DNA of 64,000 nucleotides from Planctomycetota bacterium (lineage in GTDB: Bacteria; Planctomycetota; MHYJ01; JACPTZ01): assembly GCA_016192525.1 (NCBI GenBank), contig JACPTZ010000218.1:9490-73489 (forward strand), read 5' to 3'. Below, piece by piece: positions 41,058 through 64,000 of this stretch. The translations under genes and the position numbers were made by a program. Position 1 is the first letter of the stretch; every line of letters begins with the position of its first letter. The notes beneath the pieces are model-generated. The model did no database searches. It was given only the letters and a program-made list of their open reading frames with translations, and was not told the DNA's origin.

Positions 41058-41089
41058 TTGACAGGCATCATCATCATCATCATGATAAT
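41058..41089 (+). promoter_or_regulatory. candidate promoter with (CAT)6 microsatellite in the spacer, family D copy 1
   Basis: TTGACA (41058-41063), gg + (CAT)6 (41066-41083), GATAAT (41084-41089); spacer 20 nt. Confidence 0.45.
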
Positions 41090-41141
41090 GGCGGTTCGTC
41101 AGCGTGTCGGGATTGGCAGACCCTGATCACGGAGGCGGGCC

Positions 41142-42181
41142 ATGGGGACGAGGAAACGGGCGTGGGGTGCGCTGCGAAAACGGGCGTTGGAGTGCGCCGC
41201 GGAAGCGGCGCCGGGGCGCATGGCGGGAGCGGCGCTTGTGGTGATGATTGCGCTGCTCACGTTCGCGGGAAGCGTCCGCGACGCCAGGGCGCAGACGCCC
41301 GGCCCCGGCGGGATCGTCATCATCGGGGTAGATCTCTCAGGCCAGTGGAACTTCGACATGACGGTGCTGACCGCCTCGGATCCGGCGATGATCGGACGCA
41401 CCTTGACCGGCGAGTTCACGGTGACCGGCGGTGTTCCCTCCTGACCATCACGCGGCCAGCGACGCAGACGCCGGCGGAGCGGATCGGGAGCGCGTTTCAG
41501 GCAGCGTCGCGGCGCATGTCGGATACGGCTTCGCTGGCGGCCGCGAGTATCCGATCGATCGTTGACGCCGCCCTGGTCGAGATGGCGGACGCCGCGACGA
41601 TGGAAGAGGCGCGCCTTGTCGAACGGAACGCGAAAACCGGGATCTCGGTGGTGGTTTGGTCCGCCTTCCGACAGATCGAAGAGGACATGAGGGGCTTCCG
41701 TTCCGCTGCGGACGAGATTGTCATCTCAGCTAGCGAGGTGGATCAGTGTCTCCTGCGTCGCCTTGCGGGGTCCATGACCGGGCAGATCGGCGCGCGGGCA
41801 GGCGAGGCAAAACGGAGCATAACCGTTGCTTCACACGAGGGACGGATGTTGCTTCAGGATGGAAGCAAGGAGAATCCACCCGCAGCTCCCCCGCTGCCGC
41901 CGAAGAAAATGGAGCACAAGATCAAAGTTCGGTTCGACGGGGAGACTACCTATCCCTATTCTCCCGACGACAAGCCGACTGAGCCTGCGGCGCGGAAGAA
42001 TCTCAACCAGGACACCCATCTGCCTGTTGAATTGAAGGCGCAGTTTCAAATCAGGCTTTTCTGCGACGAGGACGAAGTGGACTGCGTCCAATTTGAGATC
42101 CACATCTTCGTCGATGAGGGTCCCGGTGGGTCGATTGTTTTCAAGTCCGATCCACCAAAGATAGTGGAGTGCGAGCCTTAG
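41142..42181 (+). pseudogene. family D secreted protein, copy 1, disrupted by an out-of-frame internal deletion
   Basis: Frame 0 ORF 41142-41444 (signal peptide + AQTPGPGGIVIIGVDLSGQWNFDMTV..TVTGGVPS-stop) continues in the -1 frame (LTITRPATQTPAERIGSA.. to 42181). The intact paralog at 62778 has 228 nt where this copy has 8 nt. Confidence 0.55.
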
Positions 42182-42184
42182 GCG

Positions 42185-43483
42185 ATGGTCTATGCGAGAT
42201 CTTTCTCTTGTTCCTCGCTCTTGACGGCGCTGGTGATCTCCGTCGCCGCCGCTCAAGACCCTCTCATGGCCCCCGTCTCCGAGTCAAGCGAGGCGGAGGC
42301 TGCAGTGCAGGAGCTCAGAAATCTGCCTGACCCGGGGGACGATTGGGACCGATTGTCGGTTTGCCCCGCAGTCGCCAAGTGTGTCGCAGCAGATTGGCGC
42401 GCCGCCCCTGCGTTGGAGTCCCTGGCGAAGTCACCGGCTCCCCGTTGGGTCAGGGTCGCAGCACTGTACGCCCTTGGTCAGATCGGACTGTCCGCCGCTT
42501 CGCCCCATTCCTGGGCTGACGCCGGCGATCCCGTCCTCGGTGCAGCAATTGCATCCATGCTGGACAATGCAACACGCGCAGGTTCCATGTCCCATGATCT
42601 GCCAGCAACACTCGCTGAGACAGATAGTACATCTGCTCGACTGGTAGAGTTGTTCGGCAAACCCATTACCCTGAGTCCATCTGAAGAACGCAACCGTGTA
42701 GCGACGCTAATCGCCCGTCTCCAGACCTCGTCCTCCATCGGAATTCGCGGTCCGTCTGTCGAACTGCCGGATTCACGGATCATCGCGCTGCTTTCTCTGC
42801 ATTGGGACGAAACGGCCCGACAGATTCGACCGGCGTTGCTCCAGGACAGTGGAGCATTCTGTCGTCGAACGCTCTACGCCACTCTCGCGCTGAGTTCTCC
42901 CGGAGCCCTGGCGGATCGCGGGGACCTACAGCTTGTCCTTACCGATTGCCCGCACATGGAGTCCACCAGTCCCATCGACTCGCTCCTGATGCTCTACGGA
43001 CTCGCCAAGGTCGGCACTCCGGCAGCCATTGCAAAGATGCGCTCGCTGCAGTGTTCCCCGTCGTCTCCATCGCTTGCGGGCATCTTGGAGAGACTGCTGC
43101 GCGACCCGCAAACTCTCGATCTCACGCATCTCATGCAAGACGTCCGCTCAGTCTCGTCGCCCGGAGAAGACAGCCGAGGCGGACGCGGAGCCAATCTCAC
43201 GCACTTTCCCTGGTCTCGCAGCCCGGACCCAGGAAATCCCATGGGGCCGCGCGTAGGAGGGGCGGTGGCGGCCATGACGCCAGATCCGCCGCCGCAGTGG
43301 CCCGAAACAATCACAGCGAGAGAGATTCACCGTAGCAATGGGCCGGATTGTCGCACCCCGGAGCCTTCGAGTTCCCAGCGGAGCAGTCTCGAGGAGACCT
43401 CGTTGGCATCCTGGTTTACGATCGGCCTCGCCCTACTCACCGTTGTCGCTGCCATTGCCTTGTGGCGGCGCGGCAGGCACTAA
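42185..43483 (+). CDS. hypothetical HEAT/ARM-like repeat protein with N-terminal signal peptide and C-terminal TM anchor
   Basis: 432 aa; starts 4 nt after the D1 stop; MVYARSFSCSSLLTALVISVAAA/QD; C-terminal WFTIGLALLTVVAAIALW; visibly lower GC and weaker GC3 bias than neighbours. Confidence 0.55.
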   Translation: MVYARSFSCSSLLTALVISVAAAQDPLMAPVSESSEAEAAVQELRNLPDPGDDWDRLSVCPAVAKCVAADWRAAPALESLAKSPAPRWVRVAALYALGQIGLSAASPHSWADAGDPVLGAAIASMLDNATRAGSMSHDLPATLAETDSTSARLVELFGKPITLSPSEERNRVATLIARLQTSSSIGIRGPSVELPDSRIIALLSLHWDETARQIRPALLQDSGAFCRRTLYATLALSSPGALADRGDLQLVLTDCPHMESTSPIDSLLMLYGLAKVGTPAAIAKMRSLQCSPSSPSLAGILERLLRDPQTLDLTHLMQDVRSVSSPGEDSRGGRGANLTHFPWSRSPDPGNPMGPRVGGAVAAMTPDPPPQWPETITAREIHRSNGPDCRTPEPSSSQRSSLEETSLASWFTIGLALLTVVAAIALWRRGRH

Positions 43484-62689: not shown

Positions 62690-62725
62690 TTGACACGTCA
62701 TCATCATCATCATCATCATCATAAT
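62690..62725 (+). promoter_or_regulatory. candidate promoter with (CAT)8 microsatellite in the spacer, family D copy 2
   Basis: TTGACA (62690-62695), cgt + (CAT)8 (62699-62722), with CATAAT (62720-62725) as the homolog of GATAAT in copy 1; spacer 24 nt. Confidence 0.45.
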
Positions 62726-62777
62726 GCTGGCTCGTCAGCGTGTGGGGCATCGCAAACCCTGTTCACGGAGACGGGCC

Positions 62778-64000
62778 ATGGGGACGAGGAGAGCGTCATG
62801 GGAGTGCGCCGCGGGAGCGGCGCGGGGACGTATCGCGGGCGCGGGCCTCGTGGGGCAGGCGTCCCCGCCTGCCCCACGGGCCCCACGTGTCGCGCGTGAC
62901 GCGGGCGAGGACGCCCGCGCCACGGCGGCCGGGCGCGTCCCGCGGGTGGGGCTGGCCCTGATGATGGCGTTCGTCGTCTTTGCGGGCGCCGCGCGCGAGG
63001 CCCGGGCGCAGACCCCCGGCCCCGGCGGAGTCGTCATCATCGGGGTGAATCTGTCCGGCCAGTGGGACTTCGACATGACAGTGCTGAACGCCTCGGACCC
63101 GGCCATGATCGGCCGGACCTTCACAGGCTCCTTTACCGTGACCGGCGGGGTGCCGGACTACCTCGGCGAGGGCACCTTCAACGGTCTCCCGGCCACCATC
63201 AGCGGAGACGGCTCGATCGATCTCTCGGACGGGACAACGATCGTCCTCTCGGACCACATCGCGACGACCGATTCGACCACGACCTTCACCGCCACGCTCG
63301 TGTCCGGTGACTTCGGTACAGGCACGTTCCAGGGCGGCACGGTGGACGACCTGCAGACCTGGAGCGGGGTCTTCAAGATCGCCATCACGCGGACACCGAC
63401 GCAGCCGCCGGAGGAACAGATCCGGAGCGCCTCCGAGACGGCGGCGCAGAACATGACAGATACGGCTACGGTCGCGTCGGCCGGCATCCGCTCGACGGCC
63501 GAAGCCGCCTTGGCCGAGATGCAAGAGGCCCCGACAGTGCGGGAAGTTCGGGAGATCGCCCGGCGGGCGGAGGCCGCCATGTCGGCGATTGTTAGAGCTT
63601 CATTCCACACCATCGAGGATGAGATGCGGCGTTTTCGTTCCGTCGCCGATGGTATTGTCAGCTCCGCTTCAAAGGGAGATCAGCGCACTCTGCGTCGCGT
63701 CGCCGGGTCTCTGACTGGACAGATCGGCACTCGCGCCGGCGAAGCGAAGCGGCGCGTAATGGATGCCTCGCAAGATGGACGCATGCTGTTCCAGGATGTG
63801 AGAGCGGGGAGGGGGAAGAAGAAGCCGCTGGTCGAGATACGAGACAACGGGATGTCGATCTATGAGTACCCCTCGGCCATCGGAGAAACAAAGTTCAAAC
63901 TCGGTGACACTACTTACGGCGGCAGGATCGTGCATGCGTTTGAGGTGGTCTGGCCCACGGGGCCGGGCTACAAGATCGAGCAGTGGATAAAGCGAACGAT
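62778..64000 (+). CDS. family D secreted protein, copy 2, intact and running off the right window edge
   Basis: Hand translation from ATG 62778 is open to base 64000 (not in the ORF track because no stop is reached). Signal peptide ..LALMMAFVVFAGAAREARA/QTPGPGGVVIIGVNLSGQWDFDMTV. The true start may be GTG/ATG 62947-62962, because 62778-62946 contains a perfect 12-bp hairpin and aligns to the copy 1 leader. Confidence 0.7.
   Translation, partial: MGTRRASWECAAGAARGRIAGAGLVGQASPPAPRAPRVARDAGEDARATAAGRVPRVGLALMMAFVVFAGAAREARAQTPGPGGVVIIGVNLSGQWDFDMTVLNASDPAMIGRTFTGSFTVTGGVPDYLGEGTFNGLPATISGDGSIDLSDGTTIVLSDHIATTDSTTTFTATLVSGDFGTGTFQGGTVDDLQTWSGVFKIAITRTPTQPPEEQIRSASETAAQNMTDTATVASAGIRSTAEAALAEMQEAPTVREVREIARRAEAAMSAIVRASFHTIEDEMRRFRSVADGIVSSASKGDQRTLRRVAGSLTGQIGTRAGEAKRRVMDASQDGRMLFQDVRAGRGKKKPLVEIRDNGMSIYEYPSAIGETKFKLGDTTYGGRIVHAFEVVWPTGPGYKIEQWIKRT

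What the first reader, a model, noticed from the sequence alone, without database searches (positions are those of the whole stretch)
62778..64000. Paralogous secreted-protein family with a conserved 5' module and divergent lower-GC C-terminal cassettes (polymorphic-toxin-like architecture)
Seen, comparing the gene at 62778 to the window edge with the locus at 41142-42181:
- Shared promoter and leader.
- Shared signal peptide and a beta-rich segment: AQTPGPGG(I/V)VIIGV(D/N)LSGQW(N/D)FDMTVL.ASDPAMIGRT.TG.FTVTGGVP.
- A shared helical middle region: ITR.P.TQ.P.E.I.SA ... RR(L/V)AGS(M/L)TGQIG.RAGEAKR......(H/Q)(E/D)GRML(L/F)QD.
- Immediately after GRMLxQD (41860 in copy 1, 63797 in copy 2) the sequences become unrelated. 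Copy 1 continues GSKENPPAAPPLPPKKMEHKIKVRFDGETTY... Copy 2 continues VRAGRGKKKPLVEIRDNGMSIYEYPSAIGETKF...
- By eye, GC content and GC3 bias drop in the middle and C-terminal parts.
- Copy 2 also carries about 100 nt absent from copy 1, including a perfect 12-bp hairpin (62849-62878), in what may be 5' UTR rather than coding sequence.

Established: polymorphic toxin systems (CdiA, Rhs, MafB and others) keep a conserved N-terminal delivery region. They swap C-terminal toxin domains after a short conserved demarcation motif, usually followed by a cognate immunity gene.

Inference: this may be an undescribed secreted polymorphic effector family. The tightly coupled gene at 42185 would be a candidate partner or immunity protein.
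Basis: partly seen in the sequence, partly recalled or inferred. Interest (0 to 1): 0.6.

Follow-up and report, generated by a model that had tools for sequence, protein, structure and literature searches.

The report
Barrel-stalk secreted family with HEAT partners
An uncultured groundwater planctomycete carries seven copies of an undescribed two-gene unit, an exported protein with a constant small beta-barrel and a fast-diverging helical stalk and tail plus a membrane-tethered HEAT-repeat partner; it is laid out like a toxin/immunity family, but no toxin is detectable and both copies in this window are damaged.

Summary
The genome holds 7 copies, and only 3 more exist in all public data searched.

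Each copy has the same plan:
- an SSR-bearing promoter and leader, then a signal peptide;
- a 127-aa 8-stranded beta-barrel, 70-85% identical between copies;
- a Pro/Thr hinge and a helical region of exactly 137 aa, 20-35% identical;
- a variable tail;
- a downstream exported, membrane-tethered HEAT-repeat gene.

1. The tails of copy 1 and copy 2 are homologous (BLASTP 1e-4). Copy 1 lacks about 100 central residues, and the shared end of copy 2 lies beyond the window edge.
2. Copy 1 is a pseudogene. It has a 220-nt out-of-frame deletion, confirmed in two independent assemblies.
3. The extra DNA in copy 2 is an in-frame 129-nt insertion of dispersed hairpin repeats. It sits inside the signal-peptide coding region, not in the 5' UTR.

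Conservation drops at the barrel/hinge boundary, not at GRMLxQD, which is only the end of helix 3. Tail class and partner class co-vary. No toxin domain, orphan cassette or tail reuse elsewhere was found.

Best reading: a co-diversifying exported binding pair on a constant module, possibly stochastically expressed. The toxin/immunity reading remains a minority possibility.

The parts
41058..41089 (+). Copy 1 promoter: TTGACA (41058-41063), GG, (CAT)6 (41066-41083), GATAAT (41084-41089)
   Evidence: Sequence. The scan finds TTGACA-17-CATGAT, 10 of 12 matches. It is identical in the Logan assembly L016.
41090..41141 (+). Copy 1 conserved leader (5' UTR) with GGAGG before the ATG
   Evidence: Alignment of upstream regions. 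A possible stem pairs the 5' end of the leader with the SD-ATG spacer, but covariation is weak.
41142..41444 (+). Copy 1 first ORF: signal peptide plus the first two strands of the barrel, ending in a premature stop. Its n-region contains a dispersed 24-mer (41185-41208).
41439..41446 (+). Deletion scar in copy 1 (tcctgacc). It replaces 228 nt of barrel-coding sequence, a net loss of 220 nt, so the frame is lost.
   Evidence: Confirmed in L016 and L017.
41444..41860 (+). Copy 1 hinge plus helical region, in the shifted frame, ending in GRMLLQD
41861..42181 (+). Copy 1 tail: class I, shortened to 106 aa, including the stop codon
   Evidence: L017 carries a further indel that truncates it.
42185..43483 (+). 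Partner pA (432 aa): signal peptide, HEAT-like repeats, Ser/Pro linker and a C-terminal membrane anchor
   Evidence: HEAT_2 scores 20 bits, below the cut-off. It is homologous to pC at E 4e-19, and a TM segment lies at 405-429.
62690..62725 (+). Copy 2 promoter: TTGACA (62690-62695), CGT, (CAT)8 (62699-62722), AAT
   Evidence: The scan finds TTGACA-18-CATCAT inside the repeat.
62726..62777 (+). Copy 2 conserved leader
62778..63005 (+). Copy 2 signal-peptide region, carrying a 129-nt in-frame insertion of two dispersed hairpin units (hairpins at 62849-62878 and 62900-62919)
63006..63386 (+). Copy 2 constant domain: 127-aa, 8-stranded up-and-down beta-barrel
   Evidence: AF2 pLDDT is 72-89 in this model and 84-92 in the paralog G model. 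Foldseek finds small calycin/avidin-like barrels. Paralogs are 70-85% identical at the amino-acid level.
63387..63797 (+). Copy 2 Pro/Thr hinge plus a three-helix region of exactly 137 aa, ending in GRMLFQD
63798..64000 (+). Copy 2 tail, class I. It runs on to window-equivalent position 64385. Partner pB (431 aa) overlaps its end by 10 nt, outside the window.

Best explanation
PROPOSED READING
This is a lineage-restricted multigene family of two-gene envelope cassettes.

- Gene 1 is exported through an SPase-I type signal peptide. It consists of a constant, soluble, calycin-like 8-stranded barrel, a Pro/Thr hinge, a three-helix stalk of fixed length (137 aa) and a tail.
- Gene 2 is a HEAT-repeat protein displayed on the periplasmic side of the cytoplasmic membrane on a long Ser/Pro tether. 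In partner class I the anchor is C-terminal; in class II it is N-terminal.
- The stalk, the tail and the partner have co-diverged to 20-35% identity in three or four matched classes. The promoter-leader-barrel module is kept alike between loci by constraint plus recombination or gene conversion.

INFERRED MECHANISM
- The variable stalk/tail binds its own HEAT partner, as a lock-and-key pair.
- The barrel supplies a common function: binding a ligand or a shared envelope component.
- The simple-sequence repeats in every promoter make the expression level of each cassette mutable, so cells differ in which pairs they display.

SHOWN VERSUS INFERRED
- Shown: the architecture, the fold of the barrel and stalk, co-variation of tail and partner classes, the mosaic combinations, the repeat positions, and the damage to copies A, B and E.
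- Inferred: the binding, the localisation, the switching and the biological role.

STATE OF THE WINDOW'S COPIES
Copy 1 is a pseudogene. Copy 2 carries a repeat insertion in its signal peptide that may impair export.
For: FAMILY SIZE AND DISTRIBUTION
- The genome holds 7 loci.
- Only 3 further members (P0007, P0008, P0009) were found, by a word search of 5.8e9 proteins and an exhaustive profile search of 1.84e9 representatives.
- None were found in 40 same-class genomes, in GTDB contigs or in JGI metagenomes.

FOLD
- Two AF2 models give an 8-strand barrel and three long helices at pLDDT about 80-97.
- Foldseek finds avidin, lipocalin, FABP, nitrobindin and de novo barrels, with TM up to 0.66 normalised to the target, plus helical bundles.

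CONSERVATION GRADIENT
- Barrel: 0.64-0.85 amino-acid identity, dN 0.11-0.35.
- Stalk: 0.20-0.36 identity, dN 0.7-1.2, yet always 137 aa long.
- Orthologue pair X7/X8: barrel dN 0.14 against stalk dN 0.24. The barrel is therefore more alike among paralogs than constraint alone predicts.

PARTNERS
- A partner lies at all loci whose contig extends far enough downstream to show it.
- HEAT_2 scores above its cut-off in 6 of 8 partners.
- Class I (pA-pD) members are mutually about 26% identical and have a C-terminal TM segment.
- Class II members pE and pG are 25.5% identical to each other. An N-terminal anchor is detected in pE and pX8, and P0014 looks the same. pX8 shows no BLASTP-level similarity to pE or pG and is grouped with them on topology only.
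- The partner classes match tail classes I and II.
- No partner-like gene occurs anywhere else in the genome.

MOSAICS OF PROMOTER TYPE AND TAIL CLASS
- CAT + class I: A-D. CAT + class II: G. CAT + class III: X7, X8. GT + class II: E. GT + short tail: F. Poly-G + class II: P0009.

REPEATS
- All four (CAT)>=5 tracts and both (GT)7 tracts in the 4.18-Mb genome lie between the -35 and -10 of family promoters.
Against: - No direct evidence exists for binding, localisation or expression.
- Tail models have pLDDT below 50, so tail folds are unknown.
- The barrel could instead be membrane-embedded; designed and natural TM barrels also appear among the Foldseek hits.
Consensus repeat numbers are identical across the few independent assemblies available.
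- The CAT repeat itself supplies -10-like CATCAT hexamers every 3 nt, so repeat number need not switch the promoter on and off.
- Three of the seven copies are damaged, which could mean the family is decaying rather than in use.
Confidence: 0.45

Rival explanations
1. Sec-exported polymorphic toxin/immunity or bacteriocin-like system. The barrel and stalk would be a constant delivery or receptor-binding module. The tail would be a non-canonical toxin acting in the periplasm or on the membrane. The tethered HEAT protein would be the cognate immunity factor.
For: - The N-terminus is constant and the C-terminus variable, with tight coupling to a partner that co-varies with the tail.
- Broken copies A and E keep intact partner ORFs, as immunity genes often do.
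- Mosaic promoter/tail combinations imply module exchange.
- Precedents are described in PMC3482391: MAFB-N-type constant domains after a signal peptide, and Imm-HEAT immunity proteins, including in planctomycetes.
- Full-length colicin E3 is the top PDB Foldseek hit of the paralog G model, but only at E 1.1e-3, TM 0.15, rmsd 32 A. That is a resemblance of layout, not of fold.
Against: - No Tox/Ntox or other toxin family is found in any tail. There is no sequence or confident fold match in the PDB.
- Class I tails look partly disordered and acidic.
- The tails recur nowhere else, and there are no orphan cassettes.
- There is no common demarcation motif.
- The partner is larger than the supposed toxin, is exported and is membrane-anchored.
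- No secretion-system marker domain is present.
Confidence: 0.2
2. OmpA-like envelope tether. The N-terminal 8-stranded barrel would sit in the outer membrane. The Pro/Thr hinge and helical stalk would hang into the periplasm. The tail would dock onto the HEAT partner tethered to the inner membrane, forming a variable bridge between the two membranes.
For: - The order signal peptide, 8-strand barrel, Pro-rich hinge, periplasmic domain matches the layout of OmpA (from general knowledge).
- An even number of strands puts both ends of the barrel on the same side of the membrane.
- Both partner classes place the HEAT domain in the periplasm on a long flexible tether, although their anchor ends are opposite.
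- Designed TM barrels, Omp33 and KdgM appear among weak Foldseek hits.
Against: - From the sequence read against the predicted strands, the hydrophobic face of the strands carries many Gly residues and only about 24 hydrophobic residues. The other face carries Asp, Lys and Gln. That pattern fits the core of a small soluble barrel better than a lipid-facing surface.
- Loops are short at both ends of the barrel.
- No aromatic girdle or terminal beta-signal is apparent.
- The best structural matches are soluble barrels: 8ah9 at TM 0.61 and bradavidin at TM 0.66.
Confidence: 0.15
3. A decaying, largely functionless lineage-specific family. On this reading, the low GC3, the deletions and the IS and repeat insertions reflect relaxed selection on everything except a recently homogenised barrel segment.
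For: - Copy A is frameshifted and carries a further polymorphic indel.
- Copy E is interrupted by a DDE transposase.
- Copy B has a repeat insertion in its signal peptide.
- Paralog D lacks the terminal module and has only (CAT)3.
- GC3 is far below the genome norm.
Against: - Copies C, F and G, all partners, and the three foreign members have long open frames.
- The stalk length is strictly conserved at 137 aa despite 20-35% identity.
- dN/dS is about 0.29 between orthologues X7 and X8 in both barrel and stalk.
- The repeat-bearing promoter and the leader are conserved across organisms whose proteins are only about 50% identical.
Confidence: 0.1

Closest known systems
MafB / MAFB-N type Sec-exported polymorphic toxins of Neisseria (Zhang et al. 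2012, PMC3482391)
   Same: - A signal peptide is followed by a lineage-specific constant globular N-domain that is highly conserved among paralogs.
- The C-terminal parts are divergent.
- A cognate downstream gene is present.
- Several copies occur per genome.
   Different: - No toxin domain and no orphan cassettes.
- Divergence begins directly after the N-domain and includes a 137-aa stalk.
- The partner is a large, exported, membrane-tethered HEAT protein.
- The loci are dispersed singly among housekeeping genes rather than clustered in islands.
Colicin/pyocin-type bacteriocins (T-R-C domain order plus immunity gene)
   Same: - A beta-rich N-domain, long helical middle and variable C-terminal part are followed by a specific partner gene.
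- There is a weak Foldseek layout match to colicin E3.
   Different: - Colicins have no signal peptide.
- Their immunity proteins are small.
- Their C-domains are recognisable nucleases or pore-formers; none is detectable here.
- TM-score is only 0.15.
SSR-controlled contingency gene families. Examples recalled from general knowledge: Neisseria porA/opc/fetA promoter tracts, Haemophilus hif and hmw, Mycoplasma gallisepticum vlhA (GAA)n.
   Same: - A multigene family of exported proteins carries a simple-sequence repeat in or next to the promoter spacer.
- Repeat numbers differ between copies.
- Three different repeat motifs occupy the same position.
   Different: - The organism is a free-living groundwater planctomycete.
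- Switching has not been demonstrated.
- The CAT repeat itself offers -10-like hexamers at every unit, so a simple spacer-length on/off model may not apply.
Calycin superfamily barrels (avidins, lipocalins, FABPs, nitrobindin; handle/barrel domains of TbpB and HphA)
   Same: A predicted 8-stranded up-and-down antiparallel barrel of about 115 residues.
   Different: - No sequence relationship, and only fold-level E-values of 1e-2 to 1e-1 for natural proteins.
- The ligand is unknown.
- The barrel is fused to a helical stalk.

Membership tests
Polymorphic toxin systems (CdiA/Rhs/MafB sense) | Constant N-terminal region and variable C-terminal region among paralogs | tested here: met
   The barrel is 70-85% identical; the stalk (20-36%) and the tails fall into 3-4 classes. 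The boundary lies at the barrel/hinge junction, not at the tail.
Polymorphic toxin systems (CdiA/Rhs/MafB sense) | C-terminal domain is a recognisable toxin (nuclease, deaminase, ADP-ribosyltransferase, peptidase, pore-former) | tested here: not met
   Pfam on whole proteins and on all 8 tails separately, plus NCBIfam, PADLOC and a PDB profile search, gave nothing. The tail models are too poor for fold search.
Polymorphic toxin systems (CdiA/Rhs/MafB sense) | The same C-terminal cassettes recur on other scaffolds or as orphan cassettes with their immunity genes | tested here: not met
   tblastn of all tails against the genome found only E's own tail, displaced by an IS element. The tails of copy 2 and of G matched only themselves among 5.8e9 proteins.
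Polymorphic toxin systems (CdiA/Rhs/MafB sense) | A short conserved demarcation motif directly before the variable domain | tested here: not met
   GRML(L/F/M)QD occurs only in A, B and F, with GKMLLQE in G. It is absent in C, D, E, X7, X8 and P0009. It is the C-terminal end of helix 3.
Polymorphic toxin systems (CdiA/Rhs/MafB sense) | A cognate immunity gene immediately downstream that co-varies with the toxin | tested here: inconclusive
   A downstream gene is always present and often overlaps or abuts gene 1. Its class follows the tail class. However, it is 380-550 aa long, exported and membrane-tethered. HEAT-repeat immunity proteins do have precedent.
Polymorphic toxin systems (CdiA/Rhs/MafB sense) | Toxicity of the C-terminal domain and neutralisation by the partner | not testable with these tools
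   This needs expression experiments.
SSR-mediated phase-variable (contingency) loci | A hypermutable simple-sequence repeat within the promoter spacer or the 5' coding region | tested here: met
   (CAT)3-8, (GT)7 or G11 lies between TTGAC(A/G/C) and the -10 in all 10 promoters. All (CAT)>=5 tracts and both (GT)7 tracts in the genome are at these sites.
SSR-mediated phase-variable (contingency) loci | Repeat length varies within a population, and expression changes with it | not testable with these tools
Consensus repeat numbers are identical in 4 assemblies of paralog D and in 1 assembly of copy 1.
HEAT_2 repeat proteins (PF13646), for the partner genes | Score above the Pfam gathering cut-off (27.7 bits) | tested here: met
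   pB 46.4, pC 29.3, pD 36.5, pG 34.1, pE 36.5 and pX8 54.6 bits. pA (20.0) and pF (23.1) fall below the cut-off, but pA is homologous to pC.
Colicin-like bacteriocins | T-R-C fold with a known cytotoxic domain, no signal peptide and a small immunity protein | tested here: not met
   Only a layout-level Foldseek hit (2b5u_A: E 1.1e-3, TM 0.15, rmsd 32 A). A signal peptide is present and the partner is large.
Calycin-like 8-stranded barrels | An 8-stranded up-and-down antiparallel barrel | tested here: inconclusive
   Two AF2 models give 8 strands at pLDDT 72-92. Foldseek TM normalised to target is 0.61 (8ah9) and 0.66 (bradavidin), but E-values are weak and there is no sequence signal.

The most novel reading that the evidence does not exclude
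A phase-variable, polymorphic effector/immunity or kin-recognition system in a free-living groundwater planctomycete. A new constant barrel-plus-stalk delivery module would carry fast-evolving tails. Each tail would be neutralised or recognised by a cognate HEAT protein tethered to the membrane. Each cassette would be switched stochastically by a promoter microsatellite. This would be a contingency-locus family outside host-associated bacteria and a new class of Sec-dependent conflict system.
Probability: 0.15. Interest if true: 0.75.

Novelty: new variant of a known kind. Interest (0 to 1): 0.45.

Why it matters
If the pairs are used as inferred, this is a compact natural example of a co-diversifying lock-and-key protein pair: stalk and tail against a HEAT solenoid, hung on a constant module. 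Ten matched variants are already available for specificity studies.

It would also extend microsatellite-controlled gene families to an environmental planctomycete. Surface and conflict biology is almost unknown in that group.

If it is a toxin/immunity system, it would add a new delivery module and tethered HEAT-type immunity.

If it is neither, the finding still corrects the public gene calls at these loci. Copy 1 is currently called as two fragments, and copy 2 is called from Met100.

Tried and rejected
I used independent Logan assemblies instead.
- Searches for more members: GTDB contigs, 40 same-class genomes, JGI metagenomes by peptide pattern and by leader DNA pattern. All found nothing.
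- Relationship of the X7/X8 tail and the F tail to class I tails by hhalign: not significant. Only an NGxxSY motif aligned, at E 0.048.
- Fold search of the tails: not interpreted, because pLDDT is below 50.
- Viral fold library: only low-TM matches to long-helix tail or tape-measure proteins, and small avidin-like barrels. There is no sign of a phage link.
- Lipoprotein reading: rejected, because no Cys follows the signal peptide; the cleavage motif is AxA|Q.
- A recurrent recombination breakpoint at GRMLxQD: rejected. Apart from the A-B pair and the X7/X8 orthologues, no paralog pair exceeds about 43% identity in helix 3.
- Tat export: every intact member has an RR pair in its n-region, but no Tat model matched. 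Left open.
Full report
WHAT IS THERE

The window is C217:9490-73489 of a 4.18-Mb, 67% GC, 227-contig assembly. Earlier notes of this scan label it an uncultured groundwater planctomycete. It has no relative closer than class level among the held genomes.

Copy 2 starts at 62778 and runs off the window. In the genome it is 535 aa and ends at window-equivalent position 64385.

Copy 1 (41142-42181) is not one gene. A 100-aa ORF stops at 41444, and the homologous remainder continues in another frame. Relative to copy 2, 228 nt coding for six of the eight barrel strands are replaced by the 8 nt tcctgacc. Two independent Logan assemblies confirm this: L016 is 100% identical over 1,948 nt, and L017 is 99.94% identical. 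L017 also has a further indel that truncates the tail. Copy 1 is therefore a pseudogene, not an assembly artefact.

THE FAMILY

tblastn finds seven loci in the genome:
- A = copy 1 and B = copy 2 on C217;
- C, D and E within 22 kb on C71;
- F on C3;
- G on C167.

Public data add only three more members (P0007, P0008, P0009), all on short Logan contigs. They came from a word search of 5.8e9 proteins and an exhaustive profile search of 1.84e9 cluster representatives. Nothing was found in 40 same-class genomes, in GTDB contigs or in JGI metagenomes. Pfam, NCBIfam, PADLOC and a PDB sequence-profile search give no family.

ARCHITECTURE

All intact members share one plan:
- a signal peptide ending AxA|Q, with no lipobox;
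- a 127-aa beta domain;
- a TRPPTQTPxEQ hinge;
- a helical region of exactly 137 aa;
- a tail of 64 to about 290 aa.

Two AlphaFold models were built, for copy 2 and for G, from alignments of 8-9 sequences. Both give an 8-stranded up-and-down barrel (pLDDT 72-92) and three long helices (78-97). The tails score below 50.

Foldseek places the barrel among small calycin-like barrels:
- de novo barrel 8ah9, E 4.5e-4, TM 0.61;
- bradavidin, TM 0.66;
- weaker hits to FABPs, lipocalins, nitrobindin, TbpB and HphA.
The middle region matches helical bundles.

I read the sequence against the predicted strands. One face carries W, F, I, L, V and many Gly. The other carries Thr, Ser, Asp, Lys and Gln. That favours a soluble barrel, but a membrane barrel is not excluded.

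WHERE CONSERVATION BREAKS

| Region | aa identity among paralogs | dN | dS | GC3 |
|---|---|---|---|---|
| Barrel | 0.64-0.85 | 0.11-0.35 | 0.34-1.0 | 0.84-0.92 |
| Stalk | 0.20-0.36 | 0.7-1.2 | saturated | 0.61-0.76 |

Tails have GC3 0.64-0.72 and partner genes 0.61-0.71. Neighbouring genes have 0.88-0.94, like the barrel.

That is why the drop after GRMLxQD looked sharp. The motif occurs only in A, B and F (GKMLLQE in G) and is the end of helix 3.

Between the orthologue-like pair X7/X8, dN is 0.14 in the barrel and 0.24 in the stalk. Among paralogs the stalk/barrel dN ratio is 5-7. I infer that the barrel segment is kept alike between loci by more than constraint alone, through gene conversion or module exchange. 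In line with this, E and F have barrels about 80% identical in DNA to B-D, although their promoter and leader are of a different type.

THE TAILS

Read to its real end, copy 2's tail is homologous to copy 1's tail (E 1e-4), to C's (1e-16) and to D's (1e-5). Copy 1 matches C at 1e-5. Class I (A-D) consists of:
- a K/RxxVRxxGxxxYxYP start;
- an HPFE..WP..QW.K.T block;
- an acidic linker;
- DNGDGTxSYxD;
- a terminal Cys-containing beta module.
A lacks the centre and D lacks the end.

Class II is helical and is shared by G, P0009 and E. E's original tail lies at C71:23802-24212, split from the gene by a 1.3-kb insertion that encodes a DDE_Tnp_1 transposase (E 3.9e-19). X7/X8 carry a coiled-coil plus beta tail, and F has a 64-aa tail. 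Neither is significantly related to class I.

No tail hits a toxin family. The tails of B and G recur nowhere in 5.8e9 proteins. There are no orphan cassettes.

THE PARTNERS

Every locus is followed by a gene for a HEAT-repeat protein. The spacing is a 4-nt gap in A, a 10-nt overlap in B and an ATGA overlap in X8. HEAT_2 scores above its cut-off in 6 of 8 partners.
- Class I partners (pA-pD, about 430 aa, about 26% mutual identity) have a signal peptide, a Ser/Pro linker and a C-terminal anchor followed by basic residues.
- Class II partners are 520-550 aa. pE and pG are 25.5% identical to each other. An N-terminal anchor is detected in pE and pX8 and is seen in the P0009 partner fragment. pX8 has no BLASTP-level similarity to pE or pG, so its placement rests on topology.

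Partner class follows tail class for I and II, and partner-like genes occur nowhere else in the genome. Two opposite anchor topologies both place the HEAT domain in the periplasm on a long tether. That suggests the position matters for function.

PROMOTERS

All ten promoters carry a simple-sequence repeat between TTGAC(A/G/C) and the -10:
- (CAT)n, with n = 6, 8, 7, 3 and 6 in A, B, C, D and G, and 5-6 in X8 and X7;
- (GT)7 in E and F;
- G11 in P0009.

These account for all four (CAT)>=5 tracts and both (GT)7 tracts in the genome. Three repeat motifs at one position argue for selection of mutability.

Two cautions apply. The CAT repeat itself supplies CATCAT/CATGAT -10-like hexamers: the scan reports TTGACA-17-CATGAT in copy 1 and TTGACA-18-CATCAT in copy 2. 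A simple spacer-length switch is therefore not implied.

An earlier follow-up in this scan (e1-2869891) reached a similar position on the promoter. I re-derived the facts independently.

COPY 2'S EXTRA DNA

Relative to paralog C, copy 2 has 129 extra nt, in frame, after the conserved ATG. They contain two hairpins (62849-62878 and 62900-62919) whose 26-nt units recur on many contigs. The ALECAAEAA-coding stretch in A, C and D is also a dispersed 24-mer, with 30 copies at two or fewer mismatches. The public gene call for copy 2 starts only at Met100 (P0001). Whether export survives a 61-residue n-region is unknown.

INTERPRETATION

The layout resembles Sec-exported polymorphic toxins with a lineage-specific constant N-domain, and HEAT-type immunity proteins have precedent (PMC3482391). 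Mosaic combinations of promoter type and tail class show that modules have been exchanged.

Four defining features of polymorphic toxin systems were tested and not met:
- a recognisable toxin domain;
- cassette reuse or orphan cassettes;
- a common junction motif;
- a small immunity protein (the downstream partner does co-vary with the tail, so I scored the immunity feature as a whole inconclusive).

I therefore rank the readings as follows:
- a co-diversifying exported binding pair on a constant module: 0.45;
- a toxin/immunity or bacteriocin-like system: 0.20;
- an OmpA-like tether between the two membranes: 0.15;
- a decaying, largely functionless family: 0.10.

The viral fold library gave nothing specific.

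Noticed in passing
C18:34680-34990 of the genome (outside the window): The same type-2 promoter and leader as paralogs E, F and P0009 (TTGACA GGGAA G11 CTG TATATG ... GAGGAGAGGAGGCAGCC ATG). Here it precedes a different small signal-peptide ORF of about 85 aa, followed by Gly-rich coding sequence. The promoter/leader module is therefore not exclusive to this family.
   Followed up: partly
Whole genome: The genome is unusually rich in simple repeats. It has 320 homopolymer tracts of at least 9 nt, almost all G or C. It also has (CAGC)22-24 at C71:149771 and C210:6044, (CGAC)10, many (AAACGTA)n-type heptamer arrays, and AAC/ACA trinucleotide arrays.
   Followed up: no
C71:87235-87252 and C192:5329-5346 (minus strand): (TCT)6 lies between TTGAC(C/A) and ATGGT at two further sites. 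C13, C92 and C172 also have poly-C or poly-G tracts inside promoter-like TTGAC..N..-10 spacers. These are possible further repeat-bearing promoters.
   Followed up: no
C71:22520-23860: A single-copy insertion encoding a DDE_Tnp_1 transposase splits paralog E from its original tail. The partner pE downstream remains intact.
   Followed up: yes
It forms part of the signal-peptide n-region of copies A, C and D, where it encodes ALECAAEAA.
   Followed up: partly
window 41090-41141 and 62726-62777: The conserved leader can form a stem pairing GGCTCGTC with G(A/G)CGGGCC, the stretch between the Shine-Dalgarno sequence and the ATG. Only one-sided and G-U changes are seen in most pairs, so covariation is weak.
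   Followed up: partly
L017 (Logan SRR12113432), equivalent to about window 42150-42160: A natural variant of copy 1 has one mismatch and one 1-nt gap. It ends the tail as ...FKSDLQR* and removes the last Cys, which fits relaxed constraint on the pseudogene.
   Followed up: yes
All intact family members, n-region of the signal peptide: Every intact member has an RR pair: TRRAS, ARRML, WRRLF, ARRRA, TRRASF or MRRSG. Tat export is possible, but no Tat model matched.
   Followed up: no
Tails of A, B, C, P0009 and the truncated E product: A Cys lies within the last 1-5 residues (...VECEP...QECG...VQCGG...LLGC...RACVST). It may be a disulfide or modification site. The partner ectodomains are also Cys-containing.
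   Followed up: no
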